Shown here in pieces: positions 683 through 10,358 of a stretch of DNA of 10,867 nt. Under the pieces are notes generated by a model, which saw only the letters and a list, made by a program, of their open reading frames with translations, did no database searches and was not told the origin of the DNA. This stretch comes from a virus. Lineage: Duplodnaviria > Heunggongvirae > Uroviricota > Caudoviricetes. The DNA lies in IMG/VR virus record IMGVR_UViG_2537561979_000004, positions 1 to 10,867 of that record; one strand, given 5' to 3'. Within the stretch, counting starts at the first letter, position 1, and every line of letters begins with the position of its first letter. Made by a program: the position numbers and the translations under genes.

Positions 683-1000
683 CTACGGCAGTGCTGGCCA
701 TTCAATATCCTGTGCAGTTGACGTATCAACACGGTTCAGCAACACCCGATACTTCTTCCAGGCTTCCACCACCAGCACGACAAGATGCCGCATACAGTGA
801 CCCAGTCAGTCCAGTTTCCAGACAACCAGTGCGTCACCTTTTTGAAGGCGCTTTAAAGCACGTTTTAATCCAGGTCGGCCTGTCCTTATTCCGCTTAATT
901 TATCTTCAAATATTTGTTCACATCCTGCACAAACAAGAGCGTTTCGTTGCAGGTCTGTATTCTGGTCATTTGTTGATACCCTTACATAGCCAATCAGCAC
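683..1000 (-). pseudogene. pin: Pin-type serine DNA invertase N-terminal remnant (GTG start at 1000; MLIGYVRVSTNDQNTDLQRNAL...) interrupted by an in-frame TGA at 806-808, then reading into a tail-fibre-assembly C-terminal peptide ([27 protein letters not shown])
   Basis: Minus-strand translation gives about 65 residues of a Gin/Pin/Hin-type catalytic N-terminus including the Ser nucleophile motif YVRVST. After the stop the same frame shows pin-like [12 protein letters not shown], then a conserved Tfa C-terminal motif. The expected invertase C-terminal HTH is absent on this strand. Confidence 0.7.
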
Positions 1001-5757: not shown

Positions 5758-6153
5758 CTAACCTCGCATGTCAAAGCCAGATTTCTGAAAATCTCTGTAG
5801 ACTTCCGGATTGTTGAAGGCCGGAAATTTGGCTTTATGAGCTGCGGACTTTATCGCTTCGCAATAGGCTTTATCACCGTTACTGGTAGATATTTTTAACG
5901 CCGTGCCATCCTGAGAGAATTCCATATGCAACCTGCATTTTTTCCCTTTCCAGTTATGCGGCTCATCAAGTTTGGCATTAATTGCAGCTCTGATTCCCCG
6001 CGCTTGCGCCCCCCATTCATCCTGATCATCCCAGCGTCCTGAACTGCAACTACCTGTAGCAGTAGTTTTGTGGCAATCTGAAGGGTGTAAAGGTGTGCAT
6101 CCCGCAACAAAACCGACCCAAAAAGTCAACATAACGATTTTCTTTAATCCCAC
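5758..6153 (-). CDS. Lipoprotein with divergent TolA domain-III-like C-terminal module (cargo gene 1)
   Basis: GTG start with GAGGAG upstream. Signal peptide MGLKKIVMLTFWVGFVAGC with lipobox Cys. The C-terminal ~80 aa (...GKKCRLHMEFSQDGTALKISTSNGDKAYCEAIKSAAHKAKFPAFNNPEVYRDFQ...) shares the conserved pattern of the TolA C-terminal domain at lower identity. Confidence 0.7.
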   Translation of the reverse strand: MGLKKIVMLTFWVGFVAGCTPLHPSDCHKTTATGSCSSGRWDDQDEWGAQARGIRAAINAKLDEPHNWKGKKCRLHMEFSQDGTALKISTSNGDKAYCEAIKSAAHKAKFPAFNNPEVYRDFQKSGFDMRG

Positions 6154-6303: not shown

Positions 6304-6732
6304 TCAGGGTTTAAAATCCAGCACCCCATTTTGAAATACTTTATATACTTCCGGCGAAGGGGGGGCAGGTATATCAGCATTCTTTATCGCATTCATCGCT
6401 TCACGACATAAATCGAGGTCTCCACTTTCTCTTTTAACCTCCAGTAGAAGGCCATTCGGGGCCATATGCATTCTCAGTGTACACTCTTTTCCTGAATACT
6501 TACTCGCATCCCCGAACTGTTTTTCGATGGCGCTCTTGATTTGATGGGCATACAGACGGATATCCTCACTAACATCAGAAGTACGTTCAGATAAACTCAC
6601 ATACTGTGTCTCTATTGCTTTATCGGAGTAATATGATGTACGGTCATGATAATTTGTCGATACAGCATCAGTGCACCCGATAATAATCCCACTAATAATC
6701 AACGTAAGAATTGATGCGCTACGAAAACCCAT
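6304..6732 (-). CDS. Lipoprotein with TolA domain-III-like C-terminal module (cargo gene 2)
   Basis: ATG with GAGG upstream. Signal peptide MGFRSASILTLIISGIIIGC (lipobox). The C-terminal ~85 aa (IRLYAHQIKSAIEKQFGDASKYSGKECTLRMHMAPNGLLLEVKRESGDLDLCREAMNAIKNADIPAPPSPEVYKVFQNGVLDFKP) aligns closely with the TolA C-terminus as I recall it (...QIKSAIESKFYDASSYAGKTCTLRIKLAPDGMLLDIKPEGGDPALCQAALAAAKLAKIPKPPSQAVYEVFKNAPLDFKP). Confidence 0.75.
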   Translation of the reverse strand: MGFRSASILTLIISGIIIGCTDAVSTNYHDRTSYYSDKAIETQYVSLSERTSDVSEDIRLYAHQIKSAIEKQFGDASKYSGKECTLRMHMAPNGLLLEVKRESGDLDLCREAMNAIKNADIPAPPSPEVYKVFQNGVLDFKP

Positions 6733-6761: not shown

Positions 6762-6791
6762 ATTATATATACCGTTGTTTTGGACGCTCAA
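6762..6791 (-). promoter_or_regulatory. Candidate sigma70 promoter for lipoprotein gene 2 (-35 TTGAGC at 6786-6791, 18-bp spacer, -10 TATAAT at 6762-6767)
   Basis: Hexamers read on the minus strand about 30 nt upstream of the ATG at 6732. Not experimentally defined. Confidence 0.4.
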
Positions 6792-6895
6792 ACAGCGAAT
6801 CAGATCAAATAAAACGCACATTTGTTAACATTTACACAAAGTCTGCGTGGGATATTCTGAAAGAATATCCATAATGTGGAGAGAATCTATTGAAG

Positions 6896-7000
6896 TGCAT
6901 GGTGCCGGGTGCCTCCCGGTGAACAAAATGTTCGTGATACCTGTCGGCGACAGAAAAGGTTAATGGTATCACCCCACCGCACAGGGGGATTCACCATGCA
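6896..7000. repeat. 105-bp nested dyad-symmetry element (outer 9-bp inverted repeat enclosing four hairpins)
   Basis: Outer TGCATGGTG (6896-6904) / CACCATGCA (6992-7000). Inner hairpins: CCGGG-tgcct-CCCGG (6905-6919), GAACA-aaa-TGTTC (6921-6933), GTGATACC...GGTATCAC (6934-6972) enclosing the palindrome CTGTCG-g-CGACAG (6941-6953), and CCCC-n8-GGGG (6972-6987). Confidence 0.5.
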
Positions 7001-7320
7001 GGAGTTTTCTTAGCAAACTCACTGCGCGCCCGGCAACTCCCAACCACATAAAATGCGGAGTTTGTGGTATTTATGCATATAACTCGCAGGAATTATCTTA
7101 AAAAACTGATGTCGATCCGGATTAAAAAGAAGCAGGTCATCATCAGATGACTGGAAAAAAGGAAAACAAAAAATACTCATCATACAGTTTTGATTGCAGG
7201 GATGAGCCTGCTATGCACAATATGCAGAATATAAGCAAGATAAAAATATGCAGGCATATTATTTCGGATTTTGTTATTAACACAACCTTTTTAATAATCA
7301 TTTGGCATACAATAAACCAG

Positions 7321-7349
7321 CCCAAAAAGAACCGCCTAAACAGGCGGTT
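7321..7349 (-). terminator. Rho-independent terminator (candidate tR'-like) in the Q-to-cargo intergenic region
   Basis: Hairpin AACCGCCT-aaac-AGGCGGTT (7330-7349), followed on the minus strand by CTTTTTGGG. Confidence 0.5.
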
Positions 7350-7594
7350 GGTCAATACAAAGGATGCTTCGTCTTTATTATAGTAATCTGAGGCGTCGGG
7401 TGTCTTGTATCAGACAACATATTGTCCCGCTAAACAGCGAATTACAAACCACCCTGCAATGATCTCTCATCTCATTTTATATGAGTTGACGACATCAGGA
7501 TAACGCATCATCAGCCCCTGCCAAGAAATATCAAAACTCCCGCCAGCAATGTGTTATCACAATATTGTAAAAAAAACACAGCACCGAAACTATA

Positions 7595-7665: not shown

Positions 7666-7700
7666 ACGTAAAAAAACCGCATTAAGCGGTTTTTTTACGT
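7666..7700. terminator. 35-bp perfect palindrome ACGT-A7-CCGC-ATTAA-GCGG-T7-ACGT; bidirectional intrinsic terminator about 80 bp downstream of the Q-like gene
   Basis: Perfect dyad seen directly in the sequence. The A-tract/U-tract architecture is typical of bidirectional terminators. Confidence 0.6.
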
Positions 7701-7777
7701 ATGTCCATGTCTGCAATCCGCCTCGCGATACAGCTTTGCGAAGCATAGCAAAATTGAAGCAGTTTATACGTAAGAAA

Positions 7778-8320
7778 TCAAGCCATTTTCTCAGCAAATG
7801 ATTCACGCATGGGAATATATAGGGCATACTCAGCAACAGCTAACCAATTAGCAATCCGTTTTTCGCATGTGCTAAAACACCACTCTGGGTGTGCATCATT
7901 TAGCAATTCAGCCATTTTGCGCTTAGTCATCCCCCGCCCTTCATAGCGTTGCCGGAGAATGCAAATCAATCCTGGATGCTCTGCCAGCACCTCACTTATG
8001 ACTCGATCAATACATAACGCCTCTGCATCAGTACAATGCGCCAGCCAGCTCTTTTGCTTGCCGTTGATCATCTCTCGCAAAAACGCTTCCAGCTCAGCTT
8101 TCTCTATTCCCGCTTTTTTCATTCTGCGCAGGGCTTCATTAATGGCTGTTTTCGTCAGTTTTTTGGATGCCAACAACTGATTGAACATATTCCCTGACCT
8201 GCCACCGCCAATATACGACCAGCGCCCCCACATACGTAGTTTTCCCTGAATCCAGACACTTTCCAGCGTGGTGAGGCGAAGGTGTTCTCCGCTTTTTCCT
8301 GTATTCGTTGGGTAAATCAT
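7778..8320 (-). CDS. Putative late-gene antiterminator Q-like protein (family assignment tentative)
   Basis: 180-aa ORF translationally coupled to the upstream gene (ATGA overlap at 8317-8320). It is the last gene of the nin-like block before the lysis cassette, the canonical position of Q. Sequence family not verified. Confidence 0.5.
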   Translation of the reverse strand: MIYPTNTGKSGEHLRLTTLESVWIQGKLRMWGRWSYIGGGRSGNMFNQLLASKKLTKTAINEALRRMKKAGIEKAELEAFLREMINGKQKSWLAHCTDAEALCIDRVISEVLAEHPGLICILRQRYEGRGMTKRKMAELLNDAHPEWCFSTCEKRIANWLAVAEYALYIPMRESFAEKMA

Positions 8321-9978: not shown

Positions 9979-10007
9979 AAAAACACGCATTTATAATGCA
10001 TGTTTTT
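9979..10007 (+). promoter_or_regulatory. Promoter -10 (TATAAT, 9992-9997) embedded in an imperfect inverted repeat AAAAACACGCAT-ttata-ATGCATGTTTTT resembling an NsrR operator
   Basis: 12-bp arms with one mismatch. The core AACACGCATTT-a-TAATGCATGTT matches the 11-1-11 NsrR consensus (AAnATGCATTT-n-AAATGCATnTT, recalled from memory) at about 20 of 22 positions. A TTGACA at 9965-9970 is 21 bp from the -10, too far for a canonical -35. Confidence 0.45.
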
Positions 10008-10019
10008 GAGGAGGTGGTT

Positions 10020-10358
10020 ATGACACACAAGAGAATTCCTAAAGATTGGGTAATCAAACGCTCAACTCCGTTCTTCACAAAAGAGAACGTACCTTCAGCG
10101 TTATTAACACATCATAATACAGCAGCAGGTGTTTTTGGGCAGTTGTGCGTAATGGAAGGCACTGTAACATATTATGGTTTTACTGATGAGAATGCTACTG
10201 AACCGGAGATAAAAGTAGTCATTAATGCTGGCGCTTTTGCAACAAGCCCACCACAATACTGGCACCGTGTTGAACTAAGCGATGATGCTCAGTTTAATAT
10301 TAACTTTTGGGTCGCTCCAGACTTCTCGGGCGAAAAAGTCTATAGCACCAAAAAATAG
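10020..10358 (+). CDS. YeaR-like DUF1971 family protein (TehB N-terminal-domain-like)
   Basis: ATG at 10020 with GAGGAGG 6 nt upstream. Protein MTHKRIPKDWVIKRSTPFFTKENVPSALLTHHNTAAGVFGQLCVMEGTVTYYGFTDENATEPEIKVVINAGAFATSPPQYWHRVELSDDAQFNINFWVAPDF... shares the RSTPF...H.T..GV...L.VM.G.V.Y.G...E..EP......AG.FA..PP..WH..E...D..FNI.F.VAP pattern of E. coli YeaR as recalled. Confidence 0.7.
   Translation: MTHKRIPKDWVIKRSTPFFTKENVPSALLTHHNTAAGVFGQLCVMEGTVTYYGFTDENATEPEIKVVINAGAFATSPPQYWHRVELSDDAQFNINFWVAPDFSGEKVYSTKK

What the first reader, a model, noticed from the sequence alone, without database searches (positions are those of the whole stretch)
6850..7002. Exceptionally dense nested dyad symmetry (cloverleaf-like ~105-nt element) plus a 21-bp perfect palindrome upstream of the cargo genes
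A perfect palindrome GGATATTCT-gaa-AGAATATCC (6850-6870) is followed by an element in which a 9-bp outer inverted repeat (6896-6904 / 6992-7000) encloses four separate hairpins, one itself nested. This is more structure than a simple terminator or operator needs. It lies on the late transcript path between the Q-like gene and the lysis genes, about 165 nt upstream of lipoprotein gene 2. Possible roles are a structured RNA or leader, or a protein-binding or recombination site. I could not fit it to a canonical tRNA.
Basis: seen in the sequence. Interest (0 to 1): 0.5.

Follow-up and report, generated by a model that had tools for sequence, protein, structure and literature searches.

The report
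Prophage small RNA gene (STnc100 family)

Summary
It is not new. Rfam's STnc100 model (RF02076) matches window 7029..6843 on the minus strand at 86.6 bits (threshold 47, E 6e-18). This family includes the Hfq-binding RNAs EcOnc27 and sRNA103 of EHEC; PasD of EPEC is a degenerate relative. These genes sit between the Q antiterminator and the lysis genes of lambdoid prophages. The window is a Rac-type E. coli prophage with exactly that gene order.

In 73 diverse homologues from Escherichia to Pantoea, Erwinia and Rahnella, the outer helix and two inner helices show many compensatory changes. Conserved G.U pairs fix the RNA strand as the window's minus strand. A sigma-70-like promoter ends 5-8 nt before the outer helix. 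The published 5' end of PasD1 falls on the first base of that helix.

Three points go beyond the Rfam model:
- Most members carry a covarying pseudoknot that the model lacks.
- Covariation supports a different register for helix P2.
- The window copy replaces the pseudoknot with a nested helix that itself shows a compensatory change, and its 21-bp palindrome is a 3' hairpin without a U-run.

The role of the conserved 5' domain is unknown.

The parts
6843..7029 (-). Full match to Rfam RF02076 (STnc100 sRNA), model positions 1-206
   Evidence: 86.6 bits against a gathering score of 47, E 6.3e-18, not truncated.
7007..7036 (-). Candidate sigma-70 promoter: -35 TTGCCG (7036-7031), a 17-18 nt spacer, and an extended -10 TGcTAAGAA (7015-7007). 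The predicted +1 is G6999.
   Evidence: Read from the sequence. Homologues in other genera have better promoters (TTGACx-17-TAnnnT) ending 5-8 nt before P1. The published PasD1 5' end is the first G of GCAUGGUG. The simple promoter scan did not call this weak site, so for this copy it is inferred.
6992..7000 (-). P1 5' strand (UGCAUGGUG), the outer closing helix
   Evidence: I4, perfect 9 nt; 7 of 8 P1 pairs have compensatory changes in 73 homologues.
6896..6904 (-). P1 3' strand (CACCAUGCA)
6972..6989 (-). P2 hairpin: UCCCCC / GG(U)GGGG with pentaloop UGUGC and a bulged U6976. This box is nearly invariant across the family.
   Evidence: this register is 99.8% paired, with 3 compensatory pairs; the Rfam register is only 87.7% paired. 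The U.G pair is present in 73 of 73 sequences, which fixes the strand.
6935..6971 (-). P3: nested helix UGAUACC / GGUAUCA enclosing an inner hairpin (6942-6953). It occupies the place where most family members have a pseudoknot.
   Evidence: I7, I15; a sister copy in E. coli O22:H8 has GAUAUC / GAUAUC, which is a compensatory change. Searches show the pseudoknot in the other members.
6921..6933 (-). S2 hairpin GAAC(A)-UUU-(U)GUUC, abutting P4
   Evidence: the four outer S2 pairs are 99.3% paired and all are compensatory across the family; variants GGACG/UGUUC and GGAC/GUUC.
6905..6919 (-). P4 hairpin CCGGG-AGGCA-CCCGG, invariant in sequence and directly stacked on the P1 3' strand
   Evidence: 100% paired, no pair changes on both sides, and only two single G.U substitutions in 73 sequences.
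6871..6895 (-). Single-stranded linker CUUCAAUAGAUUCUCUCCACAUUAU, the candidate seed region
   Evidence: unpaired in the fold. In PasD the RIL-seq-derived seed UGUGAG lies in the equivalent linker, just before the terminator. The seed role here is inferred.
6850..6870 (-). The 21-bp perfect palindrome: an AU-rich 9-bp hairpin (-9.5 kcal/mol) aligned to the family's terminator stem but lacking a U-run
   Evidence: z -3.1; it travels with the TolA-like gene module, not with the core.
6807..6848 (-). Second, imperfect hairpin (CGCAG..CUUUG / CAAAU..UGCG) followed by UUUUAUUUG, a possible weak intrinsic terminator
   Evidence: -9.3 kcal/mol, z -0.75, so not significant on its own. The terminator scan did not call it.
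6762..6791 (-). Promoter-like site TTGAGC-18-TATAAT in front of the TolA-like lipoprotein gene (context, not part of the RNA)
   Evidence: 10 of 12 matches.
6304..6732 (-). Downstream cargo gene: lipoprotein with a TolA C-terminal domain (context)
   Evidence: PF06519, E 3e-23.
7778..8320 (-). Upstream Q-like gene (DUF1133, with a borderline Phage_antitermQ match) (context)

Best explanation
The element is a gene for an STnc100-family small RNA on the minus strand of a Rac-type lambdoid prophage of E. coli. This family includes EcOnc27/sRNA103 of EHEC. PasD of EPEC is a degenerate relative.

Shown here:
- Family membership by covariance model.
- An RNA-level fold: P1, P2, a variable domain and P4, supported by compensatory changes.
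- Strand assignment from conserved G.U pairs.
- The conserved position between the Q gene and the lysis genes.

Inferred from homologues and the literature:
- The RNA is transcribed from its own sigma-70 promoter, starting at about G6999, which is the first base of the outer helix. It therefore exists in the lysogen independently of the late operon.
- It consists of a roughly 105-nt folded 5' domain (7000..6896), a 25-nt single-stranded linker (6895..6871) and 3' hairpin(s) (6870..~6807).
- Like EcOnc27 and PasD, it most likely acts in trans. It would bind Hfq and pair with mRNAs or other sRNAs through the variable linker.
- The invariant 5' domain would be a conserved scaffold whose own role is still unknown. 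It could provide stability or bind a partner.

This copy is atypical in two ways. The pseudoknot found in most members is replaced by a nested helix plus a short hairpin. The GC-rich terminator with a U-run is replaced by an AU-rich palindrome followed by a weak hairpin and UUUUAUUU. Some transcription may therefore read through into the TolA-like lipoprotein gene.
For: Family and fold:
- Rfam RF02076 matches at 86.6 bits against 47, E 6e-18, full length, on the minus strand.
- The fold has z -4.1.
- I collected 191 homologous elements (120 unique cores) from viral contigs and from Enterobacterales genomes.
- On 73 diverse cores, 96.4% of cells are paired, against 44-49% when partners are slid. 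14 pairs have changes on both sides, and 0 of 500 shuffles reach the observed values.
- U.G at P2 occurs in 73 of 73 sequences and G.U in S2 in 39 of 73. These give the strand.

Independent transcription unit:
- A promoter sits at a fixed distance in distant genera although its sequence differs.
- The PasD1 5' end from RNA-seq and Northern analysis equals the first base of P1.
- 87 of 131 distinct 3' tails have a strict intrinsic terminator, usually 22-30 nt after P1.
- Tandem arrays of up to four genes each have their own promoter and terminator.

Context:
- The window has Q-like gene, element, two TolA_C lipoprotein genes, P21-type holin, lysozyme and Rz.
- The same order occurs in phage mEp460, H-19B, a Qin-type prophage, EPEC PP4, Klebsiella grimontii, Superficieibacter electus and Enterobacter quasihormaechei.

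Literature:
- EDL933 has 11 expressed copies, one confirmed by Northern blot (PMC5331693).
- EcOnc27/sRNA103 binds Hfq, and its overexpression raises fimZ and espA (PMC7873438, PMC12711010, PMC4104026).
- PasD stability depends on Hfq, and its seed lies in the linker (PMC8550237 and its supplement).
- RpoD is bound at STnc100 promoters in Salmonella LT2 (PMC10794520).
Against: - There are no expression data for this Rac-type copy.
- Its promoter is a weak match: the -10 is TAAGAA with an upstream TG, and the promoter scan did not call it.
- It lacks the canonical Hfq-binding module of a GC-rich hairpin plus a U-run, so Hfq dependence and a discrete 3' end are uncertain.
- No target is known for STnc100 proper by a direct test.
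- Some family members have only 3-8 nt between P1 and the terminator. That leaves no room for a linker seed and suggests the folded core itself carries a function.
- P4 and most of P2 are invariant in sequence, not merely in pairing. A plain scaffold role does not explain this.
Confidence: 0.8

Rival explanations
1. The element is a cis-acting leader. In this particular copy the STnc100 core is the 5' leader of the TolA-like lipoprotein mRNA, or a processing or stabilising element of the late transcript, rather than a free sRNA. Transcription starting at P1, or arriving from the Q-modified late promoter, would run through the non-terminating palindrome into the cargo gene.
For: - The window-type tail has no GC-rich hairpin plus U-run. 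The only candidate terminator is weak (z -0.75).
- The same tail is always joined to the TolA-like gene, including in the viable phage mEp460, where it follows a pseudoknot-type core.
- The element has the same orientation as the late genes in every context examined.
Against: - A separate promoter-like site (TTGAGC-18-TATAAT, 6791..6762) lies between the element and the gene.
- Most family members are closed transcription units with strong terminators. They are followed by unrelated genes or directly by the holin.
- A weak hairpin followed by UUUUAUUUG does exist at 6848..6807.
Confidence: 0.15
2. The element is a DNA-level site. The invariant boxes and the palindrome would serve as recombination joints between phage modules, or as an operator for a DNA-binding protein, rather than acting through RNA.
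For: - A module joint lies exactly at the P1 3' strand. mEp460 and a Qin-type prophage carry a different core joined to the identical window-type tail.
- P4 is invariant in sequence.
- The 21-bp element is a perfect 9-3-9 AT-rich palindrome of the kind dimeric regulators bind. It belongs to the upstream region of the TolA-like gene.
Against: - Compensatory changes occur in P1, P2, S2, the pseudoknot and the window-type P3.
- G.U pairs would be A.C on the other strand or in a DNA cruciform.
- Family members are expressed and bound by Hfq (PMC5331693, PMC7873438).
- Recombination at conserved boxes can be a by-product of their conservation.
Confidence: 0.05
3. The element is a tRNA-like or other known structured RNA (tRNA, tmRNA, riboswitch or ribozyme) that was filed as an sRNA.
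For: - The outline is cloverleaf-like: a closing helix, a 2-nt joint (AA), and the last hairpin stacked directly on the closing helix.
- Loops and junctions are invariant, as in ligand- or protein-binding RNAs.
Against: - ARAGORN finds no tRNA or tmRNA in the window.
- Among 4227 Rfam families, only STnc100 matches this stretch at E up to 1.
- There is no CCA or discriminator context.
- P4 has a 5-nt loop, not a T-loop.
Confidence: 0.03

Closest known systems
STnc100 (Rfam RF02076), which covers EcOnc27 of E. coli O157 Sakai and sRNA103 of EDL933
   Same: - The covariance model matches above threshold.
- The invariant boxes are the same: GGUGAAUCCCCC..GCGG.GGGG and UCACCGGGAGGCACCCGGCACC.
- The P1, P2 and P4 helices are the same.
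- The position between the Q/late promoter and the lysis genes, and the orientation, are the same.
   Different: - The variable domain is a nested helix plus a short hairpin, not the pseudoknot seen in nearly all other members.
- The 3' hairpin is AU-rich and has no U-run.
- There is no convergent partner sRNA of the AsxR/AgvB type.
- The host element is a Rac-type prophage and the downstream cargo is TolA-like, not stx or an esterase.
PasD1/PasD2 of EPEC E2348/69 (EcOnc13 homologues)
   Same: - The promoter type is the same and the transcript starts at the first base of P1.
- P1 and the S2 hairpin are shared.
- The position after Q and before the holin is the same.
- The layout of 5' domain, linker and terminator is the same.
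- The Zhu et al. 2026 preprint proposes common ancestry.
   Different: - PasD has lost the P4 hairpin and has a shortened P2 loop, and Rfam does not call it at the gathering score.
- PasD keeps the pseudoknot (AAUGAUC/GAUCAUU), whereas the window copy does not.
- The PasD seed UGUGAG and its terminator GGCUGCGCAUGGCGCGGCC(U)8 are absent from the window.
Anti-sRNAs AsxR and AgvB (Tree et al. 2014)
   Same: They are prophage-borne, Hfq-binding RNAs encoded in the same moron insertion zone downstream of the late promoter. They often lie convergent to an STnc100-type gene (PMC4104026, PMC7873438).
   Different: They are 51-60 nt RNAs on the opposite strand with a different sequence and fold. Neither Rfam family matches the window.
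IsrK, StxS and lambda 6S-type short late-promoter transcripts
   Same: They are small RNAs of the same prophage region. A sub-threshold isrK-like terminator hairpin lies right after the Q-like gene of this window, at 7744..7670.
   Different: Those RNAs start at the Q-dependent late promoter and end at tR'. The present element lies 640 nt further downstream and has its own promoter.

Membership tests
STnc100 (Rfam RF02076) | Full-length match to the family covariance model at or above the curated gathering score | tested here: met
   86.6 bits against 47, E 6.3e-18, model positions 1-206 of 206, minus strand 7029..6843.
STnc100 (Rfam RF02076) | Conserved core: closing helix P1, hairpin P2 and hairpin P4, with the two invariant sequence boxes | tested here: met
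   Both boxes are present without a mismatch. The helices are supported by covariation in 73 homologues.
STnc100 (Rfam RF02076) | Location in lambdoid prophages between the Q antiterminator/late promoter and the lysis cassette, on the same strand | tested here: met
   for the window. for homologues.
STnc100 (Rfam RF02076) | Own sigma-70 promoter that places the transcription start at the first base of P1 | tested here: inconclusive
   The window has TTGCCG, a 17-18 nt spacer and TGcTAAGAA at the right distance, but it is a weak match and the scan did not call it. Homologues and the PasD1 5' end support the rule.
STnc100 (Rfam RF02076) | Rho-independent terminator (GC-rich hairpin plus U-run) a short linker after P1, which is the usual Hfq-binding module | tested here: inconclusive
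   87 of 131 distinct tails have one. The window instead has an AU-rich 9-bp hairpin without a U-run, then a weak hairpin followed by UUUUAUUUG. The terminator scan called nothing there.
STnc100 (Rfam RF02076) | H-type pseudoknot between the strand after P2 and the loop of hairpin S2. This is a feature I found in most members; it is not part of the Rfam definition. | tested here: not met
   Across the family, the mean helix is 6.1 bp against 4.3 +/- 0.13 in 2000 permutations of 59 helix classes, with 0 permutations as high. In the window, the S2 loop (UUU) cannot pair and the partner strand lies before S2, forming a nested helix.
STnc100 (Rfam RF02076) | Expressed as a discrete RNA of about 160-210 nt that binds Hfq | not testable with these tools
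   This is known only for other copies (PMC5331693, PMC7873438, PMC8550237).
PasD (EPEC) | PasD-type tail with seed UGUGAG and terminator GGCUGCGCAUGGCGCGGCC, and a core without P4 | tested here: not met
   The window keeps P4 and has a different tail.
tRNA / tmRNA | Cloverleaf recognised by ARAGORN or the Rfam tRNA model | tested here: not met
   One search found 0 genes. One search found no tRNA or tmRNA match in the window.
Intrinsic terminator (for the 21-bp palindrome) | GC-rich stem followed directly by a run of U | tested here: not met
   The stem has 3 G-C pairs out of 9 and its tail is CACGCAGAC.
Anti-sRNA AsxR / AgvB | Match to RF02703 or RF02702 on the strand convergent to the STnc100 gene | tested here: not met
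   no match at E up to 1.

The most novel reading that the evidence does not exclude
The roughly 105-nt 5' domain of the STnc100 family may be a functional RNA module in its own right, not just the front end of a base-pairing sRNA. It is a four-way junction with two sequence-invariant hairpins. In most members it also has a covarying pseudoknot that the Rfam model does not encode and that the 2026 comparative study does not mention.

On this reading the domain binds a conserved host or phage factor, or acts in cis. The Rac-type copy in this window would be a selected topological re-wiring of that module, with the pseudoknot turned into a nested helix. It would be fused to a cargo gene that it may help to express.
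Probability: 0.25. Interest if true: 0.6.

Novelty: already known. Interest (0 to 1): 0.22.

Why it matters
For annotation, this settles the locus as a copy of a catalogued prophage sRNA. About 540 of 5,426 complete E. coli genomes carry the sequence at 99% identity or more, and RefSeq annotation leaves it unnamed.

The wider interest is modest but real. These RNAs flank Shiga toxin genes and other prophage cargo, and variation in one of them has been linked to clinical outcome (PMC12711010). Reviews state that the reason for their arrangement is unclear (PMC7873438).

The comparison made here points to three things:
- The conserved part is an intricately folded 5' domain with a pseudoknot, not the seed or the terminator.
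- The curated consensus structure mis-pairs one helix.
- Natural variants exist that rewire the fold (this window) or delete P4 (PasD).

These variants are ready-made material for testing what the domain does.

Tried and rejected
- **tRNA or tmRNA.** ARAGORN found nothing.
- **Other RNA families.** A permissive Rfam scan of the whole window gave only STnc100 for this stretch. The isrK, IS009 and MIR7993 hits lie elsewhere and are below threshold.
- **RNA on the plus strand.** It folds equally well, but G.U pairs conserved across homologues exclude it.
- **The Rfam pairing register for P2.** It is 87.7% paired with many C-A cells, against 99.8% for the shifted register.
- **Counting the pseudoknot on the MAFFT alignment.** The two strands are out of register between subfamilies by 1-2 columns. 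I used an alignment-free test instead: the longest helix between the 12 nt after P2 and the S2 loop, compared with cross-pairing, shuffling and permutation controls.
- **Small protein.** A 22-codon ORF starts at the AUG inside the P1 3' strand (6900..6832). That AUG is absent in most other genera, where P1 reads CACCAC or CACCGC.
- **PasD membership.** PasD1 lacks P4 and Rfam does not call it.
- **BLAST against phage records.** It mostly found only the 42-nt 5' box, for example just downstream of stx1B, which is too short for analysis. Pattern scans of contig collections were far more productive.
- **Chance hits.** Many genome-contig hits in Actinobacteria and other GC-rich phyla were chance matches of the 17-mer. 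I filtered them out by requiring both boxes.
- **One paper.** The 2026 preprint on an sRNA guiding CsrA, which mentions PasD2, could not be opened.

Full report
**1. The observation**

- The perfect 9-3-9 palindrome is at 6850-6870.
- The perfect 9-nt outer repeat is at 6896-6904 / 6992-7000.
- Inside it is an 8-nt perfect repeat at 6934-6941 / 6965-6972, with a nested 6-nt repeat at 6941-6946 / 6948-6953.
- There are three further short hairpins.

The 187-nt stretch folds much better than shuffled controls on either strand, with z -4.1 on the minus strand and z -3.9 on the plus strand.

**2. What it is**

A scan of the whole window against Rfam gave one strong match. STnc100 (RF02076) matches on the minus strand at 7029..6843, full length, at 86.6 bits against a curated threshold of 47, with E 6e-18. 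ARAGORN found no tRNA.

The window is E. coli DNA, 99.9% identical to many chromosomes. It is a Rac-type lambdoid prophage with trkG and pinR nearby. All genes lie on the minus strand, in this order:
- DUF1367
- YbcO
- a Q-like protein (DUF1133, with a borderline Phage_antitermQ match)
- the element
- two TolA C-terminal-domain lipoprotein genes
- P21-type holin, lysozyme and Rz

In RNA terms the cloverleaf-like domain comes first and the 21-bp palindrome follows it.

**3. What is known about the family**

- STnc100 copies are numerous in pathogenic E. coli. EDL933 has 11, all transcribed, and one is confirmed by Northern blot (PMC5331693).
- The copy downstream of stx2B is the Hfq-crosslinked RNA EcOnc27, also called sRNA103. 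Its overexpression raises fimZ and espA. It belongs to pairs of convergent sRNA genes in the moron zone downstream of the late promoter in at least eight Sakai prophages (PMC4104026, PMC7873438, PMC12711010).
- RpoD is bound at STnc100 promoters in Salmonella LT2 (PMC10794520).
- A 2026 preprint relates STnc100 to PasD1/PasD2 of EPEC. Those are abundant, Hfq-dependent RNAs of 172-173 nt whose RIL-seq-derived seed lies just before the terminator (PMC8550237).
- No direct target or mechanism has been established for STnc100 itself.

**4. Comparative analysis**

*Collecting homologues.* Two pattern scans brought in 191 elements with 120 unique cores. One scan used the 5' box in viral contigs and the other the 3' box in one genome per species. 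The hosts range from Escherichia, Salmonella, Klebsiella and Enterobacter to Pantoea, Erwinia and Rahnella.

*Conserved and variable parts.* Two boxes are almost invariant: GGUGAAUCCCCC..GCGG.GGGG and UCACCGGGAGGCACCCGGCACC. The 45-90 nt between them vary freely.

*Helix support.* On a MAFFT alignment of 73 cores that are less than 88% identical to one another:
- P1 has compensatory changes at 7 of 8 pairs.
- The four outer pairs of hairpin S2 are all compensatory.
- P4 never changes on both sides.
- Overall, 96.4% of cells are paired, against 44-49% when partners are slid. No shuffle in 500 reaches the observed values.

*The register of P2.* P2 is supported only in a register shifted from the one in the Rfam consensus: U.G, CCC/GGG, a bulged nucleotide, then CC/GG, with a pentaloop UNNGC. 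This register is 99.8% paired. Its compensatory changes include C-G to U-A, A-U and G-C. The Rfam register is only 87.7% paired.

*Strand.* The U.G pair in P2 is present in all 73 sequences, and a G.U pair in S2 in 39 of 73. The functional strand is therefore the window's minus strand.

**5. A pseudoknot the Rfam model lacks**

In nearly all members, the 6-10 nt that follow P2 are complementary to the loop of hairpin S2. The sequences differ widely between lineages, for example AUCAGCG/UGCUGGU, AAUGAC/GUCAUU, CUGGUG/CACCGG, AGGCUAC/GUAGCCU and UUUGAUC/GAUCAAA.

| Comparison | Fraction with a helix of at least 6 bp |
|---|---|
| Matched partners | 65% |
| Cross-paired partners | 19% |
| Shuffled loops | 8% |

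With one representative of each of 59 helix classes, the mean helix is 6.1 bp, against 4.3 +/- 0.13 in 2000 permutations, none of which reaches it. The 2026 preprint used RNAalifold and does not mention a pseudoknot.

**6. How the window copy differs**

*The variable domain.* The window's domain is not pseudoknotted. The strand after P2 (UGAUACC) pairs with GGUAUCA, which lies before S2. S2 itself is a short hairpin with a UUU loop. Only two other versions of this nested type turned up:
- One in a viral contig has the same P3 and S2 GGACG/UGUUC.
- One is the fourth gene of a tandem array in E. coli O22:H8. Its P3 is GAUAUC/GAUAUC, a compensatory C-G to U-A change, and it carries a canonical terminator.

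The nested form therefore looks like a maintained variant, not decay.

*The tail.* The window tail has three parts:
- a 25-nt linker;
- the AU-rich palindrome, with no U-run;
- a weak hairpin followed by UUUUAUUUG.

This tail is not specific to the nested core. Phage mEp460 and a Qin-type prophage carry a pseudoknot-type core joined, exactly at the P1 3' strand, to the identical tail and the TolA-like gene. The palindrome therefore belongs to the cargo-gene module.

**7. Evidence for a separate transcription unit**

- In distant genera, a good sigma-70 promoter (for example TTGACG-17-TAATTT) ends 5-8 nt before P1, although the promoter sequences are unrelated.
- The published PasD1 start coordinate is the first G of GCAUGGUG, and its end lies in the U-run.
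- 87 of 131 distinct tails carry a strict terminator, mostly 22-30 nt after P1.
- Arrays of three or four genes repeat the promoter-core-terminator unit every 230-480 nt.
- In the window, the corresponding promoter (TTGCCG, 17-18 nt spacer, TGcTAAGAA) is a weaker match, and the simple scan did not call it.

**8. Mechanism**

The best-supported reading is an Hfq-type trans-acting sRNA. Its variable linker would carry the seed, as in PasD. Its conserved 5' domain has a function not yet known.

Two facts argue that the 5' domain is more than a passive scaffold:
- P4 and most of P2 are conserved in sequence, not only in pairing.
- Some members have only 3-8 nt between P1 and the terminator.

Against this, PasD works as an abundant Hfq partner without P4.

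For this copy, a cis role as leader of the TolA-like gene cannot be excluded, because a canonical terminator is missing. A purely DNA-level role is disfavoured by the covariation and the G.U pairs. The exception is the palindrome alone, where an operator role remains possible.

**9. Verdict**

The finding is real and was correctly sensed as a structured RNA. It is a member of an already catalogued family that standard Rfam-based annotation would name. The copy is an unusual variant in both fold topology and 3' end. The comparative work yields corrections to the family's consensus structure. These are useful but not surprising enough to change the low overall score.

Noticed in passing
window 7670-7744 (-): There is a sub-threshold isrK-like match (20.9 bits, E 0.55). 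It is centred on the hairpin AAAAAAACCGCUUAAUGCGGUUUUUUU, which lies immediately after the Q-like gene. It may be the tR'-type terminator of a short late-promoter transcript, comparable to IsrK, StxS or lambda 6S. The hairpin is symmetrical, so it could terminate in both directions.
   Followed up: no
window 7323-7406 (-): A promoter-like site AAGACA-18-TATAAT (7406..7377) is followed about 30 nt later by a terminator-like hairpin, AACCGCCUGUUUAGGCGGUU plus a U-run (7349..7330). This could be a second very short transcription unit between the Q-like gene and the sRNA.
   Followed up: no
window 5758-6153 and 6304-6732 (-): Two paralogous cargo genes encode proteins with a TolA C-terminal domain (PF06519). 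A promoter-like site, TTGAGC-18-TATAAT, lies at 6791..6762. RefSeq names one of them 'tolA', which is misleading for a prophage gene.
   Followed up: partly
window 717-796 (-): There is a partial match to Rfam IS009 (45 bits, gathering score 117). It covers only the 3' 80 nt of the model.
   Followed up: no
alignment A1, columns 13-31; window 6972-6989: The Rfam consensus structure of STnc100 pairs hairpin P2 in a register that covariation does not support (87.7% paired against 99.8%). The supported register has a conserved U.G pair, one bulged nucleotide and a pentaloop UNNGC.
   Followed up: yes
L245 1734-2617 (E. coli O22:H8) and L005 (viral contig): Four STnc100 genes lie in tandem, each with its own promoter-like site. 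All four have a terminator in L245, but only two of the four do in L005. They have different variable domains and linkers. In L245 the array sits just upstream of a SASA-family esterase gene. Superficieibacter electus (L208) and a Pantoea plasmid (L185, L209) have three each.
   Followed up: partly
L246 1461-1633 (EPEC E2348/69, PasD1): PasD1 starts at the first base of P1 and keeps the pseudoknot (AAUGAUC/GAUCAUU). It has lost the P4 hairpin and has a shortened P2 loop. The Rfam STnc100 model does not call it at the gathering score.
   Followed up: yes
window 6832-6900 (-): A 22-codon ORF (MHFNRFSPHYGYSFRISHADFV) starts at the AUG inside the P1 3' strand. The GGGAGG of P4 lies 11 nt upstream. 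The AUG is not conserved in other genera, so the ORF is probably fortuitous.
   Followed up: partly
L098 (viral contig), downstream of its second element: One homologue is followed directly by a sequence ending in GGUUCGACUCCCCGGUGGCGGACCA. This looks like the 3' part of a tRNA or tmRNA gene and may mark an integration-site junction.
   Followed up: no
window 9996-10358 (+): A DUF1971 gene lies on the opposite strand within the prophage. In related genomes it is flanked by IS1 copies.
   Followed up: no
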